The notes below the pieces were generated by a model. The model was not told where the DNA came from. It saw only the letters and a list, made by a program, of their open reading frames with translations, and made no database searches. Shown here piece after piece: positions 1,884 through 59,322 of a stretch of 64,000 nt of DNA. Made by a program: the position numbers and the translations under genes. The stretch comes from Candidatus Versatilivorator sp. (GTDB lineage: Bacteria; Acidobacteriota; Terriglobia; Versatilivoradales; Versatilivoraceae). The stretch covers positions 352,001 to 416,000 of the forward strand of contig OZ242296.1 in assembly GCA_965207735.1 (NCBI GenBank), in the 5' to 3' direction. The first letter of the stretch is position 1, and each line of letters begins with the position of its first letter.

Positions 1884-3017
1884 TCACAGTTGCTCCAGGG
1901 CCGAGAGGCAGCGATCGATATCGTCCTCGGTGTTGAAGTAACCGGGGCTGATTCGGACGGCCCCCTCGGGCGCCGTGCCCAGCTGCCGGTGAAGATAGGG
2001 GGCACAGTGCAGGCCGGGCCGGACGGCGATTTCGAAGGAGTTGTCCAGGATCATTCCCACCTCCGAGGCGGTGTAACCCTCCCGGTTGAACGCCAGCGAA
2101 CCCACCCGGCGGTGCGTGTCCAGGGAGCCGTAGAGACAGATCTTGGGGTTGTCCCTGAGGGATTCGGTCAATCGAGCCAGCAAACGCTGCTCGTGGCCGC
2201 GGATCCTGTCGAGGCCCTCGCCGGTCACAAAGCGCAGGCCGGCTCTCAGCCCCGCCACACCCAGGGTGTTGGGGGTCCCCCCTTCCAGAAGGTGGGGAAG
2301 GCTGCGGGGCTGCAGGGGGGCTTCCGAATCGAAACCGGTACCGCCTTCCCGCCAGGGGAGCGGCTCGACCCGGTGGCCCACCAACAGAACGCCGATTCCG
2401 GGCGGACCGAACAGGGCCTTGTGGCCCGGAAAAGCCAGCAGATCGATCCGCATGGCCTGCATGTCGATGGGAACGATTCCGGCTGTCTGGGCCGCATCCA
2501 CCAGAAACAGCGCCTCGTGCCGGCGGCAGATCCTGCCGATTTCGGCAATGGGTTGCAGGGTTCCCAGGACGTTGGAGGCGTGCAGCAGGACCACCAGCCG
2601 GGTTTGCGAGGTCAGGGCTCTGCCAAAGTCTTCCGGATCGACGAACCCCTGCTGAGAGAAAGGCAACTGGGTCAGCCTGATGCTGCCGTCGCTTTCCAGC
2701 TGTCTCAAGGGGCGGGAGACCGAATTGTGTTCCAGCAGGCTGGTGACCACGTGGTCTCCAGGGCGAAGCACTCCCTTGATAGCCATGTTGAGGGAGTCGG
2801 TGCCGTTGAGGGTGAAAATCACCCGGCGATGGTCGTCCAGTCCAAAAAAGCGGGCCAGCAGGTTGCGGGTGTCGTCCAAGGTTTTTTCCACCCGGACTGC
2901 CCACTGGTGTCCCCCTCTGCCGGGATTGGCCCCATCGCGGCGCAAGTAGTCCTGCAATTCCCGGTAGACGGCCTCCGGTTTGGGAAAGCTGGTGGCTGCG
3001 TTGTCCAGATAGATCAT
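1884..3017 (-). CDS. Cysteine desulfurase family (class V PLP enzyme)
   Basis: MIYLDNAATS, DAAQ, FPGHK (PLP Lys), RPGLHCAP catalytic Cys. Confidence 0.92.
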   Translation of the reverse strand: MIYLDNAATSFPKPEAVYRELQDYLRRDGANPGRGGHQWAVRVEKTLDDTRNLLARFFGLDDHRRVIFTLNGTDSLNMAIKGVLRPGDHVVTSLLEHNSVSRPLRQLESDGSIRLTQLPFSQQGFVDPEDFGRALTSQTRLVVLLHASNVLGTLQPIAEIGRICRRHEALFLVDAAQTAGIVPIDMQAMRIDLLAFPGHKALFGPPGIGVLLVGHRVEPLPWREGGTGFDSEAPLQPRSLPHLLEGGTPNTLGVAGLRAGLRFVTGEGLDRIRGHEQRLLARLTESLRDNPKICLYGSLDTHRRVGSLAFNREGYTASEVGMILDNSFEIAVRPGLHCAPYLHRQLGTAPEGAVRISPGYFNTEDDIDRCLSALEQL

Positions 3018-3112
3018 GGTGGGTGGCGGCTGCCGGCTATCTCCCGGTTTTGCCCTGGCGGGGGCGCGGTCGCGGCATCCTGGGGACGGTCTCTTGCGCC
3101 TCGGTTGGGATC

Positions 3113-4147
3113 TCAGTTTCCGATGTACCTGGAATAGAGTGAACGGGCCTCCTGGGAGTCCCGGGTGCCCTTGACAATGCTCCGGCCGTCCGGAAAGACG
3201 GCTATTTCAATCTCCTTCAGCCGGAACCTGAGCAGAAACCGATTGTAGGAAACGCTGCCCAGAGGTTCCAGGCGGCGGCTCAGTTGGGGGAAATCCAGGT
3301 GTTTCCCCGGGGCCTGACTGATCTGAACCGAGTCTCGCCCGCAGAGAACGGTGGCCAGGGACTCCCGCTCCCCCTCCAGGAAGTCGTAGCGGCCCAGATG
3401 GCAGGCCGGGCAATCCCCGCCGGTACGGCTGCTTTCGATCTCCAGGCGCCGCCAGCTGTTCCGCCAGACATCCAGGCTGACCAGGTTCCGGTTGACGCGC
3501 TCCAACCGTCCAGTCAGGATCTTCAAGGCTTCGGCCACCTGCAGGGAGGCCACCAGGTTGACGGCCGGCGCCAGCACGCCCGCCGTATCGCAGGTGGGCG
3601 TGGTTCCAGGCGGTGGCGGGGACTCAAAGACACAACGCAGGCAGGGCGTCCGGCCGGGAACAATGGTCATGGTCAGGCCCTCGCTTCCTACCGCGGCCCC
3701 GTAAATCCAGGGGATTCGCCGCTTATGAGAGACGTCGTTCAGCAGGAAGCGAGCCTCGAAGTTGTCGGTGCCGTCGAGAATGCAGTCCGCATCCTCCAAC
3801 AGGGATTCGGCGTTGCGATAGTTGAGGTCCTCCACCCGGGCCTCCACGGCAACCGAGGAGTTGATGGCCTGCAGGCGCCGTGTGGCGGCCACCGCCTTGG
3901 GGAGGCCTTCCCGAACGTCCTCCTCCGTGAACAGGGTTTGCCGCTGCAGGTTGCTTTCCTCGATGAAGTCCCGGTCGATCAGGCGGAGGCTTCCGACCCC
4001 CGCACGGGTCAATGCCTCGGCCTGCACCGTTCCCAGAGCTCCGCAGCCCACGATGACCACCCGGCTGCCAAGCAGGCGCTCCTGTCCGGCTGTGCCAATT
4101 TCCGCAAAGAGGATCTGGCGGGAGTAACGGGTTGGAAGATCCGACAT
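3113..4147 (-). CDS. ThiF/MoeB-family adenylyltransferase (E1-like)
   Basis: RYSRQ, GCGALG, SNLQRQ, DGTDN, two CxxC motifs (CLRC, CPAC). Confidence 0.93.
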   Translation of the reverse strand: MSDLPTRYSRQILFAEIGTAGQERLLGSRVVIVGCGALGTVQAEALTRAGVGSLRLIDRDFIEESNLQRQTLFTEEDVREGLPKAVAATRRLQAINSSVAVEARVEDLNYRNAESLLEDADCILDGTDNFEARFLLNDVSHKRRIPWIYGAAVGSEGLTMTIVPGRTPCLRCVFESPPPPGTTPTCDTAGVLAPAVNLVASLQVAEALKILTGRLERVNRNLVSLDVWRNSWRRLEIESSRTGGDCPACHLGRYDFLEGERESLATVLCGRDSVQISQAPGKHLDFPQLSRRLEPLGSVSYNRFLLRFRLKEIEIAVFPDGRSIVKGTRDSQEARSLYSRYIGN

Positions 4148-54421: not shown

Positions 54422-55036
54422 ATGGAATCTCGATTCAACAAACCCAGGGTGGCCATCAATCGGGTCTACACCCGGATGGGCGACTCCGGGGAGACCAAGC
54501 TGGCTGGAGGACAAAAGGTGTCCAAGGGGTCCTTGCGCCTGGAGGCCTACGGCACGGTGGATGAGCTCAACGGATTCGTCGGAATGGCCTGTCAGACGGC
54601 TCGAGATCAGGTGGAGCGAAACCCGGAGTTGCAGGCTATGGTGACCTGCCTGGTCCGGGTGCAGCACGAGCTCTTCAACCTGGGAGCAACGCTTGCCACC
54701 TTGCCCGAGGATATTCATCCCCGCCAGCCACAGGTGACCGAGCGGGATATCCAGCGGCTGGAACAGGAGATCGACCGCGCCAATCAGGTCCTGGAGCCCT
54801 TGCGCTCCTTTGTCCTGCCGGGAGGCAATCGACTCAACCTGGAGCTTCACCTCTGCCGCACCATATGCCGGCGCGCCGAACGGCACTGTGTCCGGCTCGG
54901 CGAGGAGGAAGCCATCCCTGAGGCGGCCGTTCAGTACCTCAACCGGCTGGGAGATGCGCTCTTCGTGTGGAGCCGTTGGGTCAGCCACCTGATTGGGACC
55001 CCGGAAACCCTGTGGGATCCCAATCTGGCGGGCTGA
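54422..55036 (+). CDS. PduO-type cob(I)alamin adenosyltransferase
   Basis: VYTRMGDSGET, AYGTVDELN, FVLPGG, RTICRRAER, YLNRL. Confidence 0.93.
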   Translation: MESRFNKPRVAINRVYTRMGDSGETKLAGGQKVSKGSLRLEAYGTVDELNGFVGMACQTARDQVERNPELQAMVTCLVRVQHELFNLGATLATLPEDIHPRQPQVTERDIQRLEQEIDRANQVLEPLRSFVLPGGNRLNLELHLCRTICRRAERHCVRLGEEEAIPEAAVQYLNRLGDALFVWSRWVSHLIGTPETLWDPNLAG

Positions 55037-55060
55037 GCTTGCCTGAAACAACCCCGCAGT

Positions 55061-56467
55061 TCAAGCGGCTGCGATTTGTGGAACGAGGTTGAAACCAAGA
55101 GACTTAGCGGCATCTTTGAGGCCCGCGAGGCGTCGTCGCCGGAACCGGTCCTCGTAGCACGCTTCCCCGATGTCGATGTAGTCCTGGCCGTAGCGCAGCA
55201 TGCGGTAGACGAGAACGGCCAGCCGGCGAGCCATGGAGAAGACGGCGACACTCCATCCCTTGTGGCGGGCCTTGCGACGGAAGGCGGCCCCCAGAGCGGT
55301 CTTGGAGTGCTTCAGAGAGACGGCTGCCATGCGCAGGACGGCGGCGGCGCGAGTAGACCCGGTGCTGTTGGCCTTCTTGTAGTGGAGCGGCTTGCCTGCG
55401 GAGACGGCCGTTTTTGGAGCCAGGCGCAGCCAGGATACAAAGTGCTTCTCCGAGGGGAAGGCCGTCAGGTCGAGGCCGGCCTCAGTCAGCAGGGTCAGGG
55501 CCGCTTCGGTGCCGATGCCGTCGATACGCGTCAGATCGACTCCGGCAAAGCGCCACAGTTCGGTGCGCAGGTGGTGCCCACCGCGGCGGCGAATCGCCTT
55601 TTCCTTGATCGCATTGGGATGCTTCGGCACGGGCTGGTCGTGGCGCTCCACCGGTTGCAGCGCCTGGATTTCCTCCAGGATGCGGGCCTCATAGGCCGCA
55701 ATCTCGCGTTGAGTCATGTCGTAGAGCTTCAGCGCCGACTTGAGGTTGAACAGATGCTCTTCTCGCCAGTTGCCTCTGAGGTGCTCGGCAAACTCCCGGC
55801 TGGACTTCTTGCACCGTCGGTCCCGCAGACCCGCCAGACGGACCGGGTCCCGTTCGCCGTCGACAATCGCCCGCACGATCGCCATCCCCGTCTGACCGGT
55901 CAGATCGGTGACCGCACGATGGATCTGGACGTTCATCTGATCCAGCGCCTTCTGCATCCACTGCACAAAGCGGGTACTCTCGGCCCCCAGAGTGCTCAGT
56001 TGCCGGTGCAGGGTCCGAACCCGGACGATCGCCTCGTGCGGACGGAAGGATCCCCGCAGCAAGCCGCAACTGTGCAGCAACTGGATCCACTGGCAGTCCC
56101 GCATGTCGGTCTTGCGGCCCGGAACGTAGCGCAACTGCCGGGCGTTGACCAGCAAGACCTCGATGCCGCAGGACTCCAGCAGTTCGTAGAGGGGAATCCA
56201 ATACACGTTGGTGCTCTCCATCGCCACCGACTCCACCCCTTGCTCCAGCAACCAGTCGGCCAGTTGCTGCAACTGCTCCATGGTGGTGCCGAAGGTGCGC
56301 ACGTTCGGCTTCCCTGGGGTCACCTCCGGAGCGCACACCCAGTGCTCCCGACTCCCCAGGTCGATCCCTGCCACCTCGGGGTGGATCCGCGACAAGGCTG
56401 TCGAACGGCTGCGCTTCTTCTTCGGGGTCTTCTTCGCCTTCGTGTTGACTTTCCTGCTCTTTTGCAT
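55061..56467 (-). CDS. IS110-family DEDD recombinase/transposase
   Basis: GIDLG, AMEST, KTDMRD, WLRLAPKTAVSAGK (catalytic Ser); RBS GGAGG. Confidence 0.95.
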   Translation of the reverse strand: MQKSRKVNTKAKKTPKKKRSRSTALSRIHPEVAGIDLGSREHWVCAPEVTPGKPNVRTFGTTMEQLQQLADWLLEQGVESVAMESTNVYWIPLYELLESCGIEVLLVNARQLRYVPGRKTDMRDCQWIQLLHSCGLLRGSFRPHEAIVRVRTLHRQLSTLGAESTRFVQWMQKALDQMNVQIHRAVTDLTGQTGMAIVRAIVDGERDPVRLAGLRDRRCKKSSREFAEHLRGNWREEHLFNLKSALKLYDMTQREIAAYEARILEEIQALQPVERHDQPVPKHPNAIKEKAIRRRGGHHLRTELWRFAGVDLTRIDGIGTEAALTLLTEAGLDLTAFPSEKHFVSWLRLAPKTAVSAGKPLHYKKANSTGSTRAAAVLRMAAVSLKHSKTALGAAFRRKARHKGWSVAVFSMARRLAVLVYRMLRYGQDYIDIGEACYEDRFRRRRLAGLKDAAKSLGFNLVPQIAAA

Positions 56468-56481
56468 GAGATTGGCCTCCT

Positions 56482-56650
56482 CCAGGGCGAGGGCTCCGGC
56501 CCGAGTTGGCGTGGTCGTTCGGATTCTTGCCTTGAGGAGAGCTTCCCGGGAAGCCTCACTAATGAATGATGACCTGCTCGGACCCAGACTTGTCTTGGGG
56601 CACGGGGCACCAATGCTGGAACGGGGCGTAGCTGCCGGAGTCTCGCCAGG
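56482..56650 (-). ncRNA. Candidate bridge/seek RNA
   Basis: Enclosing stems GGCGAG/CTCGCC and CTCCGGC/GCCGGAG; two similar modules CATT-hairpin-CAAGRCAAG whose variable bases match the element and target junctions. Confidence 0.7.
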
Positions 56651-57327
56651 TGCTTATTCTTTCACAATGATCCGTTGTTTCACCCTCGAATGATCCGCCC
56701 GTCGTGGGGGGCGGGGGCGGGACTTGTCTGAAACAACCGAAAAACGACAAGAGACAAACGAAAAAGACTTATCCACGAAGGGGCGCGAAGAACGACGAAG
56801 GGGCACGAAGGCGCTGAGGTTAACCGCGACGGGATACAAGTTCGCGAAAGGATTGTCGATTTCTGATTGTTTCACTCTCGAATGATCCGCCCGGCAGGGC
56901 GGGGGCGGGACTTGCCTGAAACAACCGACAAAAGACAAAAGAAAAAAGAAATCCACGACGGGGCACGAAGAACGACGAAGGGCCACTAAGGCGTTGAGGT
57001 TAACCGCGACGGGGTACCAAGTTCGCGAAAGGATTGTCGATTTCTGATTGTTTCACTCTCGAATGATCCGCCCGGCACGGCGGGGGCCCGGCTTGTCTGA
57101 AACAACCGAAAAAAGACAAAAGAAAAAAACTTATCCACGAAGGGGCACGAAGAACGACGAAGGGCCACTAAGGCGCTGAGGTAAAACGCGACGGGATACC
57201 AAGTTCGCGAAAGGATTGTCGATTTCTGATTGTTTCACTCTCGAATGATCCGCACGGCAGGGCGGGGGCCCGGCTTGTCTGAAACAACCGACAAAAGACA
57301 AAGAAAAGACTTATCCACGAAGGGGCA

Positions 57328-59322
57328 GTGCGCCGTGGAAAGGCGCCTTCTTCTGGCGGGTGCGAACCCCGCCCAACAACTGTCGCTCCGGTTGGTAGCA
57401 GCCAGGGCGGATCATGGAGGTAACGAAATGGTCTGAAGCACTCTGGGGTCAAGGGCCGCCAAGGGCGGCTCAGCGAGCATGCGGGCCGGAACGCGAGTGA
57501 ACGTCGAGCAGGCCTCGAAACGGACAATACGGAAGCCGACCCTCCTGTCTTTAGGGGAAGGCCGTTGGCGGATGGGGAAGAGAGCGACGCGGGCACCGAT
57601 CCGCTTCCGTCGGGGTAGTGACGCTGGCACGCATGGAAGGGGAAGAAGGCAGCAACACGGGAAGCCCTGGGGGAGATGCGGCACACATCAACCGGGACCC
57701 CGCGAGGGGCAGGCCGGGCCGTCAGGGTGGCGGATGGGTCGGTAGTACCGGAGAAGCCGGGTAACGCCGGTGGAGGGAAGGGACCCTGAGTTGAGAGCAG
57801 CATGGAAAGGAGGCAAGGCGTGGCCACTGACAAGAGTCTAACAGGGTCAGAGGGGGTTCGGAAATTCCAGACCATGCTACATGCGAAAGCGAAGGAGGAC
57901 CCCAAGCGGCGGTTTCATGCGCTGTCGGACAAGGTGTGGCGAGAGGACTTTCTGAAGGAAGCCTGGGCACAGGTACGCCGAAACGGCGGGTCGGCCGGGG
58001 TGGACGGGGAGGGCTTCAAGGACATCGAGGCGTATGGGGTGGAGGGCTGGCTGGGGGAACTGGCGCGGGACCTGAGGGAAGGAACCTACGTACCGAAGCC
58101 GGTGCGGCAGGTGCTGATCCCGAAGAAACAGCCCGGCAAGTTCCGGCCTTTGGGCATACCCTGCATACGGGACCGGGTAGCGCAGACGGCGGCTTTGCTG
58201 GTGTTGGAGCCGATCTTCGAAGCGGACCTGCAACCGGAGCAATATGGCTATCGGCGGGGGCGGAGTGCCAACGACGCGGTCAAACGCGTGCATGAACTCC
58301 TGCAAAGGGGTTACCAGGAGGTGGTTGACGGCGACCTGTCCAACTACTTCGGCGAGATTCCGCATGCGGAGCTGATTCGAAGCATTGCCCGGCGCGTGAG
58401 TGACGGGAGGATGCTCAAGCTCATCAAGGCATGGCTGGAGATGCCGGTGGAGGAGGACGACGGGAAGGGTGGCAGACGCCGCCGGAACCGAGGGCGCCGG
58501 GAGCGGAAGGGGACACCGCAAGGAGCCCCGATCTCACCGTTGCTCAGCAATCTCTACATGCGGCGCTTCGTTTTGGGCTGGAAGGTGCTGGGATATGCCC
58601 GGCGCTTCTGTGCGGAGATCGTCAACTATGCGGATGACTTCCGTGTACTCGGCAGGGCACCGGCGGCAGAGATGCTGACGGCGGTCAAGCGGATCATGGA
58701 GGAGCTGAAGCTACCGGTCAACGAGCGGAAGACCCGATGCTTGCGGTGTCCGGAGGAACCGATGGGGTTTCTGGGATATCGCATCGGACGCAACTATCGC
58801 CCCAAAGGGAAAGGAGCCTACATCGGCACACGACCCAGCCAGGCGAGCGTCCAGAGCATCTGCCGCAAGATCAGCGAGTGGACGGCGCCGAGGAACGGGA
58901 CGCTGCTTCGAGGACAGATGGTAGAACACCTGAACCGGGCGATGACCGGGTGGGCGAACTACTTCGTTCTGGGGCAGGTGAGCCCGGCCTACCGAGCGAT
59001 CGACCGCCACGCGGGCGGGCGGCTGCGTCAGTGGCTCTGTCGGAAGCACAAGGTGAGGACCGGGGGGAGTGTGCGCTTCTCGGACGAGAGACTATGGAAA
59101 ACCTATGGACTCACTTGCCTGGGGTCGAAGCCACAGAGCCTTCCGAGGGCGAAGGCATGATCTTGACTGAAAGCCGGATGCGGGAAAACCGCACGTCCGG
59201 TTTGACGAGCGGGGGCGAGGAAACGCAGCGAGGAACGAGATTGAGGCACCGGCGAGTGGCGAAAGCCGCCGGCAACAGCGACTCCCTCGATCTAAGGCCG
59301 GCGCGCCTCCCCTCGACTCTAC
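57328..59322 (+). mobile_element. Group II intron (1995 nt)
   Basis: 5' GTGCG; domain V GAAAGCCGGATGCGGGAAAACCGCACGTCCGGTTT near 59169-59203; 3' CTCTAC; removal restores GGGGCA|CGAAGAAC as in units 2 and 3. Confidence 0.95.
57802..59160 (+). CDS. ltrA: Group II intron reverse transcriptase/maturase, no endonuclease domain
   Basis: RPLGIP..RDR, GTPQGAPISPLL, YADD, GWANYF; ends without an HNH domain. Confidence 0.95.
   Translation: MERRQGVATDKSLTGSEGVRKFQTMLHAKAKEDPKRRFHALSDKVWREDFLKEAWAQVRRNGGSAGVDGEGFKDIEAYGVEGWLGELARDLREGTYVPKPVRQVLIPKKQPGKFRPLGIPCIRDRVAQTAALLVLEPIFEADLQPEQYGYRRGRSANDAVKRVHELLQRGYQEVVDGDLSNYFGEIPHAELIRSIARRVSDGRMLKLIKAWLEMPVEEDDGKGGRRRRNRGRRERKGTPQGAPISPLLSNLYMRRFVLGWKVLGYARRFCAEIVNYADDFRVLGRAPAAEMLTAVKRIMEELKLPVNERKTRCLRCPEEPMGFLGYRIGRNYRPKGKGAYIGTRPSQASVQSICRKISEWTAPRNGTLLRGQMVEHLNRAMTGWANYFVLGQVSPAYRAIDRHAGGRLRQWLCRKHKVRTGGSVRFSDERLWKTYGLTCLGSKPQSLPRAKA

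What the first reader, a model, noticed from the sequence alone, without database searches (positions are those of the whole stretch)
56482..56650. Candidate bridge RNA with near-identical target and donor guides
The minus-strand non-coding region has two modules: TCCAGCATT-hairpin-CAAGACAAG (56620-56589) and TCATTCATT-hairpin-CAAGGCAAG (56569-56526). AGACAAG equals the sequence directly left of the IS (56729-56723, the end of cassette 1). AGGCAAG equals the IS's own right end (55044-55038). The AGC of module 1 complements the GCT across the right junction, so the reconstructed empty site AGACA-AG-CT fits module 1. The two guides differ by one base, which would explain self-targeting. Each match is only 7-9 nt, but position and pairing fit both junctions. 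The closing stem abuts the SD and may couple folding to translation.
Basis: partly seen in the sequence, partly recalled or inferred. Interest (0 to 1): 0.85.

Follow-up and report, generated by a model that had tools for sequence, protein, structure and literature searches.

The report
Bridge RNA that targets its own ends
This stretch encodes a conserved structured RNA upstream of an IS110-family transposase gene; its two loops copy the left flank and the element's own right end, so it is predicted to be a bridge (guide) RNA, and because the two guides are nearly identical, new copies would likely land right behind older ends and build repeat arrays.

Summary
Window 56480-56654 (minus strand) lies in the left non-coding end of a 1,685-bp IS110-family element (55038-56722) that has 10 copies in this genome.

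A covariance model built from 21 relatives finds the same RNA upstream of the transposase gene in about 65 related loci. On that alignment, 32 of 39 base pairs show compensatory changes.

- **Loop 1, 3' arm (AAGACAAG):** it copies the left flank plus an AG core. 36 of 49 relatives have a perfect 7-mer upstream, against 25 of 1,928 controls.
- **Loop 2, 3' arm (AAGGCAAG):** it copies the element's right end in 43 of 44 loci, with 19 different 7-mers, against 0 of 1,598 controls.

This is a bridge/seekRNA and a new structural variant of that kind. A long closing stem encloses both loops, and the guide order is the one reported for IS1111-type seekRNAs, although the RNA lies upstream of the gene.

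The two guides differ by one base, and are identical in 4 of the 10 copies. All 10 copies sit directly behind a right-end-like GTTTCAGRCAAG that belongs to about 182-bp miniature units sharing both IS ends.

The AGC/GCT pairing is only partly supported. Coupling to the ribosome-binding site is untested. One feature is unexplained: the 5' arm of loop 2 copies, in the same sense, a left-end segment that lies beyond a GC hairpin.

The parts
55038..56722 (-). Complete IS110-family element, 1,685 bp. The left end starts TCCCGCC at 56722; the right end stops ...GTTGTTTCAGGCAAG at 55038.
   Evidence: The 10 copies in the genome are 97-100% identical between these limits and diverge outside them.
55061..56467 (-). 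Transposase/recombinase gene, 468 aa.
   Evidence: Pfam DEDD_Tnp_IS110 (2.7e-22) and Transposase_20 (8.8e-12). NCBIfam NF033542 'IS110 family RNA-guided transposase', 222 bits against a cut-off of 140.
56480..56654 (-). Predicted bridge RNA (covariance-model match).
   Evidence: Model R1 scores 166.5 bits, E 1.5e-47. There are exactly 10 matches in the genome, one per IS copy. Structure comes and pair statistics.
56634..56647 (-). Closing stem P1, 5' strand (GGCGAG-A-CUCCGGC).
   Evidence: It pairs with 56486-56500. RNAalifold modelled 8 of its pairs, and 7 of these 8 show changes on both sides across relatives. The outer GGCGAG/CUCGCC part and its longer covarying versions in L046, L047 and L050 were read by eye.
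56486..56500 (-). Closing stem P1, 3' strand (GCCGGAG-CC-CUCGCC). It ends 2 nt before the Shine-Dalgarno GGAGGAGG (56476-56483).
56582..56627 (-). Target-binding stem-loop: basal stem GCCC/GGGU, an internal loop, and an apical hairpin at 56595-56613.
   Evidence: All 4 pairs of the basal helix show changes on both sides.
56589..56596 (-). Left target guide, AAGACAAG, on the 3' side of loop 1. It is the same sense as the left flank plus the AG core.
   Evidence: 36 of 49 relatives have a perfect 7-mer in the 130 nt upstream, against 25 of 1,928 controls. In this genome, 5 of 10 copies match perfectly and 5 of 10 have one mismatch.
56615..56617 (-). Candidate right target guide, AGC, on the 5' side of loop 1. 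C would pair with the core G, and G with flank base +1.
   Evidence: The +1 complement holds at 23 of 30 sites, the +2 complement at 7 of 30. Positional scan z is about 4 against a noisy background. C is the first base after 56 of 104 right ends in unique DNA.
56501..56581 (-). Donor-binding stem-loop: basal stems CCGAG/CUCGG and GGU/GCC, an internal loop, and a long apical hairpin.
   Evidence: All 11 pairs of the apical helix show changes on both sides.
56526..56533 (-). Left donor guide, AAGGCAAG, on the 3' side of loop 2. It is the same sense as the element's right end plus the AG core.
   Evidence: 43 of 44 loci are perfect 7/7, with 19 distinct 7-mers; controls give 0 of 1,598. Site level: 29 of 30.
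56563..56570 (-). 5' arm of loop 2, AUCAUUCA. It is the same sense as the left-end segment 56687-56694.
   Evidence: 44 of 49 relatives match at 6 or more of 8 positions (shift of +/-1 allowed), against 53 of 1,600 controls.
56687..56694 (-). Subterminal left-end segment ATCATTCG, copied by the 5' arm of loop 2.
56695..56720 (-). GC-rich hairpin in the left end (CCGCCC...GGGCGG), between the core and the copied segment.
   Evidence: The order 'core, 7-8 nt spacer, 5-8 bp hairpin of varying sequence, copied segment, 5 nt, GAAAC' recurs in most of about 45 relatives.
56674..56682 (-). Left subterminal inverted repeat, TGAAACAAC.
   Evidence: It is the reverse complement of 55044-55052. GAAAC and GTTTC are conserved in relatives.
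55044..55052 (-). Right subterminal inverted repeat, GTTGTTTCA. The last 7 nt of the element (55038-55044, AGGCAAG) are the left donor plus core.
56723..56737 (-). Target half-site in the flank, GTTGTTTCAGACAAG. It is the right end of the neighbouring miniature unit.
56723..57327 (-). Head-to-tail array of about 182-bp miniature units (TRF gives 3.5 copies for 56675-57327, a span that also takes in the IS's first 48 bp). Each unit starts with a left-end-like 50 nt and ends with GTTGTTTCAGRCAAG.
   Evidence: TRF period 182, 89% matches; sequence; genome-wide census.
56656..56661 (-). Possible -10 box, AAGAAT, preceded by TG at 56663-56664. It lies inside the left end, about 6 nt upstream of the model start.
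   Evidence: By eye only. TAGAAT/TATnnT-like motifs, with TTGCAC-like -35 boxes in AT-richer relatives, stand at the same place. The strict consensus scan found none.

Best explanation
The 175-nt stretch upstream of the IS110-family transposase gene encodes a conserved structured RNA whose two internal loops carry same-sense copies of the left flank (loop 1) and of the element's own right end (loop 2). It is therefore predicted to act as a bridge RNA that would guide the recombinase to insert the element directly after ...AGRCAAG.

**Shown here**
- The fold is a long closing stem that encloses a target-binding and a donor-binding stem-loop.
- The 3' arm of each loop ends in AG and covaries with the left flank (loop 1) or with the IS right end (loop 2).
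- The element has 10 copies in the genome.
- Every copy lies directly behind a GTTTCAGRCAAG end.

**Inferred**
[quoted passage not shown] This follows the rule published for left target and left donor guides.
- The 5' arm of loop 1 contributes only a C opposite the core G plus about one further base. Target choice would therefore rest almost entirely on the left half-site.
- The target and donor guides differ by at most one base. Each inserted element would therefore recreate a valid left half-site at its own right end, and later insertions of the IS or of the about 182-bp miniature units that share its ends would stack head to tail. This would explain the arrays.
- The miniature units carry no RNA gene and would depend on the IS in trans.
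- Transcription probably starts from a promoter inside the left end and may run on into the transposase mRNA.
For: **Gene context.** The transposase matches Pfam DEDD_Tnp_IS110 and Transposase_20 and NCBIfam NF033542.

**Structure.**
- In 21 sequences, 15 of 39 predicted pairs have compensatory changes.
- In the 72-match alignment, 93.1% of cells are paired and 32 of 39 pairs show changes on both sides. None of 500 shuffles reaches this, and slid controls give 33-53% paired.
- Frequent G-U pairs, for example 22 and 35 sequences at two pairs, fit only the transposase-sense strand.

**Distribution.** The model gave 72 matches in the 100 sources searched. Of these, 69 lie on the transposase strand, nearly all directly upstream of a transposase gene. 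The other 3 are weak (E 0.0008-0.005): two antisense (L051, L055) and one short partial match (L082). The own genome has exactly 10 matches.

**Donor guide.** With the right end defined without using the guide (GTT[TA][CGT]N7 ending in AG, a single candidate), 43 of 44 loci are perfect 7/7 with 19 different 7-mers. Controls give 0 of 1,598. Twelve loci were ambiguous and 9 had no candidate. In this genome the A/G position of the guide matches the right end in 10 of 10 copies, including two A/A copies.

**Target guide.** 36 of 49 relatives have a perfect 7-mer upstream, against 25 of 1,928 controls. The L037-L045 lineage shows natural retargeting: guide AGGTCAG with flanks ...GGTCAG| at 7 of 9 sites and GGTTAG| at 2 of 9.

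**End-targeting.**
- All 10 left flanks are (G/T)TTGTTTCARRCRAG.
- Of 218 such ends in the genome, 107 are followed by a left-end-like start, 10 by the IS, and 101 by unique DNA that diverges right after AAG.
- Of 107 left-most units that lack a GTTTC prefix, 48 are preceded by a match of at most one mismatch to AGRCAAG, mostly at one fixed position. Random windows give 206 of 5,000.
- Relatives show IS-IS tandems: L028, L052, L090, L051/L055.

**Published rule.** Left guides pair with the bottom strand, and the core is included in the pairing (PMC11208160 and PMC11208158, passages read).
Against: - There is no direct evidence that the RNA is made or bound by the protein.
- No Rfam family matches. 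The single-sequence fold is no more stable than shuffles. No consensus sigma-70 promoter or terminator was found.
- The right-hand guides do not behave canonically. The 5' arm of loop 1 specifies at most the core G and base +1 (23 of 30 sites; base +2 only 7 of 30). That signal rests on about six lineages, and the positional scans have background z values up to about 5.
- The 5' arm of loop 2 is not complementary to the left end next to the core.
- Half of this genome's copies have one mismatch between target guide and flank, so specificity is loose or the guides have drifted.
- Across the clade, target and donor guides are only slightly more alike than random pairs: 3.16 against 3.47 mismatches in 5 positions. 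Near-identity is a trait of this lineage and not of the family.
- The alignment used was fitted to the model, which favours the structure.
Confidence: 0.85

Rival explanations
1. The RNA is a bridge RNA, but the arrays are not built by repeated guided insertion of miniature elements. They arise in place by one-sided ('half-match', left-donor-only) recombination or by replication slippage that duplicates the segment next to a right-end-like site. This is the mechanism proposed for tandem non-coding repeat units beside IS110 elements.
For: [quoted passage not shown] Preprint 10.64898/2026.08.31.748434 (abstract read) shows that donor-arm recognition alone can drive IS621 recombination. In this genome every unit boundary keeps the left-donor-like AGRCAAG.
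Against: The units are scattered over about 100 loci. Most of these loci have no IS next to them: 101 right ends abut unique DNA, and there are only 10 IS copies. Left-most units start exactly after AGRCAAG-like sites in otherwise unique DNA (48 of 107). That pattern fits insertion better than local duplication. Units within the window array are only 89% alike.
Confidence: 0.25
2. The about 182-bp repeat is a host repeat family of independent origin, similar to REP elements. The IS has evolved ends and guides that mimic it. On this view the repeats are targets only, not non-autonomous derivatives mobilised by the IS.
For: IS110-family elements that target host palindromic repeats are well known. 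ISPpu10 targets REP sequences (preprint 10.64898/2026.03.19.712850, abstract and section 7 read). ISPpu9 is known to me only from the search listing. Relatives of this IS with other guides target unrelated repeats, such as the GTGATCAGTGGTCAG arrays in L037-L045.
Against: The units share about 50 nt with the IS left end, including the hairpin, the segment copied by loop 2 and the inverted repeat. They also share the last 15 nt of the right end, in the same order and with the same precise outer boundaries as the IS. A pure target would not need the donor-side features.
Confidence: 0.2
3. The structured region is only a 5' leader that regulates transposase translation. On this view its similarity to the flank and to the right end reflects DNA-level binding sites or gene conversion and does not reflect RNA guides.
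For: The closing stem ends 2 nt from the Shine-Dalgarno sequence. Contigs from RNA libraries run continuously from the RNA region into the coding sequence. No separate promoter or terminator was found.
Against: Loop 1 matches host DNA outside the element and changes with it across lineages. Gene conversion within the element cannot do that. The loops, and not the stems, carry the variable matched bases, as in published bridge RNAs and seekRNAs. A leader role and a guide role can coexist.
Confidence: 0.03

Closest known systems
IS621 bridge RNA (IS110 group). Durrant et al. 2024, PMC11208160; Hiraizumi et al. 2024, PMC11208158. Passages and section 12 read.
   Same: It is encoded in the long left non-coding end upstream of a DEDD/Tnp recombinase gene. 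A target-binding stem-loop is followed by a donor-binding stem-loop. The left guides have the sense of the top strand and include a shared 2-nt core. The guides covary with the flank and with the IS end.
   Different: - This RNA has no 5' stem-loop. A closing stem of about 14 bp encloses both loops instead.
- The left guides sit on the 3' side of each loop. In IS621 the left target guide is A50-U58 on the 5' side and the right target guide is G77-G80 on the 3' side.
- The core is AG, not CT.
- The 5' arm of the donor loop is not complementary to the left end next to the core.
- The likely promoter lies inside the left end and is not rebuilt across the circle junction.
- The recombinase has 468 aa.
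seekRNAs of IS1111-type elements (ISEc11, ISKpn4, ISPa11). Siddiquee et al. 2024, PMC11187229. Abstract and passages read.
   Same: The guide order matches: the segment complementary to the top strand lies 5' of the segment that matches the bottom-strand partner. Clear subterminal inverted repeats are present, here 9 bp (GTTGTTTCA/TGAAACAAC).
   Different: The RNA lies upstream of the transposase gene, which is the IS110-type position. That paper mentions a few such exceptions. The left inverted repeat lies about 40 nt inside the end, not about 7 nt, with a GC hairpin in between. I did not place the protein on a tree with named IS1111 members.
REP-targeting IS110 elements ISPpu10 and ISPpu9. 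Preprint 10.64898/2026.03.19.712850 (abstract and section 7 read); PMC12288879 (search listing only).
   Same: Insertion is site-specific into a multi-copy palindromic repeat. A DNA stem-loop next to the recognised site is conserved in structure more than in sequence.
   Different: In ISPpu10 the stem-loop lies 5' of the left target in the target DNA. Here the hairpin lies to the right of the core, in the donor left end and in the repeat units. Here the repeat units also carry both IS-like ends.
Expanded IS110 loci with tandem non-coding repeat units. Preprint 10.64898/2026.08.14.744561, passages read.
   Same: Head-to-tail non-coding units lie next to an IS110 element, and the unit boundaries keep a left-donor match.
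   Different: Here the units are dispersed genome-wide, mostly without an adjacent IS. Here there is also a specific cause: the target guide equals or nearly equals the donor guide. [quoted passage not shown] In this element the left half-site is regenerated.

Membership tests
IS110-family bridge RNA / seekRNA | Encoded in the long non-coding end of an element that carries a DEDD (RuvC-like) plus Tnp-domain recombinase. | tested here: met
   Pfam PF01548 and PF02371. NCBIfam NF033542, 222 bits. 69 of the model's 72 matches are on the transposase strand, nearly all directly upstream of a transposase gene.
IS110-family bridge RNA / seekRNA | Conserved secondary structure with two stem-loops, each with an internal loop. 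| tested here: met
   RNAalifold consensus. 93.1% of cells paired, 32 of 39 pairs changed on both sides, 0 of 500 shuffles as high. The alignment was fitted to the model.
IS110-family bridge RNA / seekRNA | Loop bases covary with the left target flank plus core. | tested here: met
   36 of 49 perfect 7-mers against 25 of 1,928 controls. Lineage-specific retargeting is seen.
IS110-family bridge RNA / seekRNA | Loop bases covary with the donor (IS right end) plus core. | tested here: met
   43 of 44 perfect, 19 distinct 7-mers, 0 of 1,598 controls. 29 of 30 at site level.
IS110-family bridge RNA / seekRNA | Target and donor share the same core dinucleotide, and both guides include it. | tested here: met
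   Both 3' arms end in AG in nearly all aligned relatives, and both junctions lie right after AG.
IS110-family bridge RNA / seekRNA | A right target guide complementary to the top strand of core plus right flank. | tested here: inconclusive
   The +1 complement holds at 23 of 30 sites and +2 at 7 of 30. Scan z is about 4 with background up to about 5. A free-position search was not enriched.
IS110-family bridge RNA / seekRNA | A right donor guide complementary to the top strand of the left end next to the core. | tested here: not met
   No such complement was found. Instead the 5' arm of loop 2 has the same sense as a segment about 29-36 nt inside the left end, beyond a hairpin.
IS110-family bridge RNA / seekRNA | The RNA is expressed and bound by the recombinase. 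| not testable with these tools
   Only assembled contigs from RNA libraries of relatives were available. They cannot show a start, an end, the strand or binding.
IS621-type (IS110 group) architecture | [quoted passage not shown] | tested here: not met
   The element has a closing stem and no 5' stem-loop, and its left guides are on the 3' side (compared with the passage). The -10-like motif lies about 62 nt inside the left end. The promoter assignment is by eye only.
IS1111 group | Subterminal inverted repeats of 7-17 bp. | tested here: met
   GTTGTTTCA (55044-55052) and TGAAACAAC (56674-56682). GTTTC and GAAAC are conserved in relatives.
IS1111 group | Long non-coding region and RNA downstream of the transposase gene. 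| tested here: not met
   Only 22 nt lie between the stop codon and the right end. The RNA is upstream.
Miniature non-autonomous derivative (MITE-like) of this IS | Short, non-coding, with both ends of the parent element at the same outer boundaries, present in many copies, and inserted at the parent's target. | tested here: met
   Units of about 182 bp share about 50 nt of the left end and 15 nt of the right end. 218 right ends; 101 abut unique DNA right after AAG. 48 of 107 left-most units follow an AGRCAAG-like site, against 4% of random windows. None carries the RNA. Mobility itself was not tested.

The most novel reading that the evidence does not exclude
In this clade the donor-binding loop reads the donor junction as a folded structure. 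Both of its arms would pair with the same (bottom) DNA strand, on either side of an extruded GC hairpin that sits between the core and the left subterminal repeat. The RNA internal loop would then dock onto a DNA internal loop in a four-way-junction-like arrangement. That geometry fits a cruciform or a single-stranded circular donor better than a plain duplex. Together with identical target and donor left guides, it would make each element end both a donor and a target, giving a self-seeding array builder.
Probability: 0.2. Interest if true: 0.75.

Novelty: new variant of a known kind. Interest (0 to 1): 0.5.

Why it matters
Bridge RNAs and seekRNAs have been known since 2024, so the class itself is not new. 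This lineage adds three things.

- **A distinct RNA family.** It has a covariance model and occurs in about 65 loci from Acidobacteriota-like and other environmental genomes. It combines IS110-type position with IS1111-type guide order and inverted repeats, which bears on how the two groups are related.
- **A natural case of near-identical guides.** The target and donor left guides are the same or differ by one base. This gives a concrete and testable cause for head-to-tail arrays of IS copies and miniature units. It also runs against the idea that insertion always destroys the target.
- **An unexplained donor-side rule.** A same-sense copy of a segment beyond a hairpin could reveal a different way of recognising the donor. 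That matters for engineering these recombinases.

Tried and rejected
- **Rfam:** no family matched the left end at E up to 1. Only group II intron models hit nearby.
- **Single-sequence fold of the 255-nt left end:** -80.1 kcal/mol, z = +1.5, so uninformative.
- **Promoter and terminator scan:** no promoter. Two weak terminator-like sites lie outside the RNA.
- **Earlier notes of this scan:** none near this place.
- **Expression:** 13 of the 23 listed runs are on record as RNA. All hold small shares, and all are kept as contigs.
- **Four runs laid on the stretch:** contigs 90-99% alike cover the transposase 5' part and the RNA region, for example 55278-56579, 55887-56641 and 56434-56700. Contigs show no start, end or strand, and DNA carry-over cannot be excluded. 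This counts neither for nor against expression.
- **Partner of the variable 5' arm of loop 1:** free-position searches, same-sense and reverse-complement, in the left flank, right flank, left end and right end gave no enrichment. Positional scans gave only the +1/+2 signal, against a noisy background. The +2 pairing was not borne out at site level (7 of 30).
- **Clade-wide test of guide similarity:** target and donor guides are only slightly more alike than chance, 3.16 against 3.47 mismatches.
- **Integron reading:** I considered whether the 'cassettes' were integron attC sites and rejected it by reading the sequence. The repeat arms read GTTGTTTCA...TGAAACAAC. This does not fit the attC core pattern as I recall it. 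No integrase search was made.
- **A failed script:** the first site-level script used an over-strict pattern and returned nothing. It was rewritten.
Full report
**What is there.** The minus strand of window 55038-56722 is a 1,685-bp insertion sequence.
- It carries one gene (55061-56467, 468 aa). The gene matches Pfam DEDD_Tnp_IS110 and Transposase_20 and NCBIfam NF033542, 'IS110 family RNA-guided transposase', at 222 bits against a cut-off of 140.
- The genome holds 10 copies at 97-100% identity.
- Aligning them with 400 nt of flank on each side fixes the ends. Identity starts at TCCCGCC (56722) and stops at ...GTTGTTTCAGRCAAG (55038).
- Only 22 nt separate the stop codon from the right end, and 255 nt of non-coding DNA lie upstream of the start codon.

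**Is the motif more than chance?** Not on its own.
- AAGRCAAG occurs 9 times in the window against 3.7 expected.
- The 255-nt left end folds no better than shuffles (z = +1.5).
- Rfam has no match.

The case therefore rests on comparison with other copies and relatives.

**Relatives and structure.**
- A scan of species-representative genomes gave 50 loci, with 99% to 33% protein identity. Most are Terriglobia and Bryobacterales-type assemblies.
- A metagenome scan gave 80 more loci.
- Twenty-one diverse upstream regions align well. They give a consensus fold in which 15 of 39 pairs carry compensatory changes.
- The fold has three parts. A long closing stem joins 56634-56647 with 56486-56500. 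It encloses a first stem-loop (56582-56627) and a second stem-loop (56501-56581). Each stem-loop has an internal loop below an apical hairpin.
- A covariance model built from this alignment gave 72 matches in 100 sources. Of these, 69 lie on the transposase strand, nearly all directly upstream of a transposase gene. The other 3 are weak: two antisense and one short partial match.
- The model finds exactly the 10 IS copies in the own genome.
- On the 72-match alignment, 93.1% of cells pair and 32 of 39 pairs show changes on both sides. No shuffle out of 500 reaches this, and sliding the partners drops pairing to 33-53%.
- That alignment was fitted to the model, which favours the structure.
- Many G-U pairs fit only the transposase-sense strand.

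**Donor guide.** The 3' arm of loop 2 (AAGGCAAG, 56526-56533) has the same sense as the last bases of the element.
- I defined the right end without using the guide, as GTT[TA][CGT] followed by 7 nt ending in AG, with a single candidate downstream of the gene.
- Of the 65 loci, 44 were unambiguous. In 43 of these 44 the seven bases equal the guide.
- There are 19 different 7-mers. Guides paired with other loci gave 0 of 1,598 identities.
- Twelve loci were ambiguous; in 8 of them the guide is among the candidates. Nine had no candidate. The one miss is L050.
- Inside this genome the variable A/G of the guide equals that of the right end in 10 of 10 copies, including two copies with A/A.
- Over 30 sites in this and related genomes the figure is 29 of 30.

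**Target guide.** The 3' arm of loop 1 (AAGACAAG, 56589-56596) has the same sense as the left flank and also ends in AG.
- In 36 of 49 relatives with full upstream sequence, a perfect 7-mer lies in the 130 nt upstream. Guides from other elements gave 25 of 1,928.
- The clearest case of natural retargeting is the lineage L037-L045, at 79-80% protein identity. Its loop 1 reads AGGTCAG, and it sits after ...GGTCAG| at 7 of 9 sites and after ...GGTTAG| at 2 of 9. The target there is an unrelated heptamer-like repeat.
- In this genome, 5 of 10 copies match their flank perfectly and 5 of 10 have one mismatch.

[quoted passage not shown] The right guides pair with the top strand on the right (PMC11208160, PMC11208158; passages).
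- The two 3' arms here behave as left target and left donor guides, with an AG core.
- They sit on the 3' side of each loop, whereas the IS621 left target guide (A50-U58) is on the 5' side.
- Siddiquee et al. report exactly this reversal for IS1111-type seekRNAs, where the top-strand complement comes first (PMC11187229, abstract and passages).
- The element also has 9-bp subterminal inverted repeats, GTTGTTTCA at 55044-55052 and TGAAACAAC at 56674-56682. This is a trait of the IS1111 group.
- Yet its RNA is upstream of the gene, which is the IS110-type position.
- I could not place the protein on a tree with named members.

**Right-hand guides.**
- Across 50 elements the two positions are complementary in 25 of 50 each, against about 13 expected (z about 4). 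Other cells of such scans reach z about 5 because the sequences are related.
- At site level, +1 fits at 23 of 30 sites and +2 at only 7 of 30. By eye, the four L032-type sites, which the script missed, do not fit at +1.
- C is the first base after 56 of 104 right ends that abut unique DNA.
- My reading is that the core G plus one base is likely read. The rest of this variable arm has no partner that I could find.
- Right flanks of sister copies share nothing beyond that base. Target choice therefore rests on the left half-site. This is in line with 'half-match' activity reported for IS621 (preprint 10.64898/2026.08.31.748434, abstract).

**An unexplained donor-side rule.**
- The 5' arm of loop 2 (AUCAUUCA, 56563-56570) is not complementary to the left end next to the core. 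It has the same sense as ATCATTCG at 56687-56694.
- That segment lies 29-36 nt inside the left end and 5 nt before the GAAAC of the left inverted repeat.
- The relation covaries. Examples are CATACA, ATCGTTCA, ATCCTTC, CCTATCA and TTTGAAC.
- 44 of 49 relatives match at 6 or more of 8 positions, allowing one base of shift. Controls give 53 of 1,600.
- Between the core and this segment there is always a 7-8-nt spacer, often NNNNGCC, followed by a GC hairpin of 5-8 bp whose sequence varies.
- Same sense means pairing with the bottom strand, which is the same strand that the left donor guide reads.
- One reading is that the RNA loop docks on both sides of an extruded DNA hairpin. I give this 0.2.
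- I found no description of this in the passages I read. My searches were not designed to exclude one.

**Why the guides matter here.**
- Loop 1 and loop 2 guides differ by one base in 6 of 10 copies and are identical (AAGGCAAG) in 4 of 10. Counting a related genome, all four A/G combinations occur.
- All 10 copies lie directly behind (G/T)TTGTTTCARRCRAG. This is the right end of an about 182-bp unit.
- That unit begins with about 50 nt resembling the IS left end (hairpin, copied segment, inverted repeat) and ends with the last 15 nt of the IS.
- Genome-wide there are 218 such right ends: 107 are followed by another unit, 10 by the IS, and 101 by unique DNA that diverges right after AAG.
- Of 107 left-most units without a GTTTC prefix, 48 follow a match of at most one mismatch to AGRCAAG, mostly at one fixed distance. 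Random windows give 206 of 5,000.
- No unit carries the RNA.
- Relatives show IS copies inserted behind the right end of another IS: L028, L052, L090 and L051/L055. In 12 of 53 relatives the left flank carries GTTTC at the right-end position.
- The likely picture is that each insertion recreates a left half-site at its own right end. Units and IS copies then stack head to tail, and the units depend on the IS in trans.
- A 2026 preprint already reports tandem non-coding units beside IS110 elements that keep left-donor matches, and favours in-place duplication (10.64898/2026.08.14.744561, passages). The dispersed, IS-free arrays here fit insertion better, but I cannot exclude duplication.

**Expression.**
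- A -10-like AAGAAT with an upstream TG lies at 56656-56664. Related elements have TAGAAT or TATnnT, some with a TTGCAC-like -35, at the same place.
- This is by eye. The strict scan found nothing.
- If real, the promoter lies inside the left end and is not rebuilt at the circle junction as it is in IS621.
- Contigs from RNA libraries cover relatives of the RNA region and run into the gene. They prove nothing about transcription.
- The closing stem ends 2 nt before GGAGGAGG (56476-56483). Any coupling to translation is untested.

**Verdict.** The finding is real, and the main interpretation is right: this is a bridge/seekRNA of an IS110-family element.
- It is a new structural variant of a known kind, not a new kind.
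- The near-identity of the guides is a lineage trait and not a family trait: 3.16 against 3.47 mismatches clade-wide.
- Confidence that it is a bridge RNA is 0.85. Confidence that guide identity drives the arrays by serial insertion is about 0.6.

Noticed in passing
window 57354-59322 (+): A group II intron lies here. Rfam matches D1-D4 at 57354-57496 and domain V/VI at 59169-59322, and the RT/maturase ORF is at 57802-59160. It is inserted inside one of the about 182-bp repeat units, after ...CACGAAGGGGCA. Another IS copy (c9, genome 2818815) has the same intron-unit junction in its left flank. The intron therefore seems to home into the repeat unit as well.
   Followed up: partly
genome G000, e.g. 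C1:62807, 466497, 758906, 3825062 (13 sites listed): At 13 of 104 unit or IS right ends that abut unique DNA, the flank begins with a direct repeat of the last five bases (...AGACAAG|ACAAG or ...AGGCAAG|GCAAG). This is far more than chance would give. It may be a footprint of insertion or excision in a shifted register. It remains unexplained.
   Followed up: partly
L021 vs L022/L023; L027 vs L024-L026 (first 5 nt of the left end): Sister copies with otherwise identical left ends differ in the first 4-5 nt after the AG core (CGACG against TCCCG; CCGGG against TCGGG). These bases resemble the start of neighbouring repeat units. This suggests exchange with the target, or recombination among repeats.
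   Followed up: no
L050 (right end) and L035 (right end): These are the two exceptions to the donor-guide rule. The L050 right end (GGGCAAG) equals its target guide and not its donor guide (GGGTCAG). L035 has donor guide AGACAAG but right end AGGCAAG, which equals its target guide. Both look like right ends replaced by target-type sequence.
   Followed up: no
L028:1330-1472 and 3005-3147; L052:1306-1477 and 2999-3173; L090:525-705 and 2150-2322: Two bridge-RNA genes lie in one locus. In each case a second IS, of the same or a different lineage, is inserted exactly behind the right end of the first, and its target guide matches that end.
   Followed up: partly
window 54422-55036 (+): A cobalamin adenosyltransferase gene (Pfam PF01923, 1.8e-55) ends 1 nt from the IS right end. 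The IS and the repeat array occupy the space just past its stop codon.
   Followed up: no
own genome copies c0-c9: The A/G position is swapped between subfamilies. Copies c0-c3 have target guide A and donor guide G. Copies c4 and c6 have G and A. Copies c5 and c7-c9 have G and G. A related genome (L024-L027) has A and A.
   Followed up: partly
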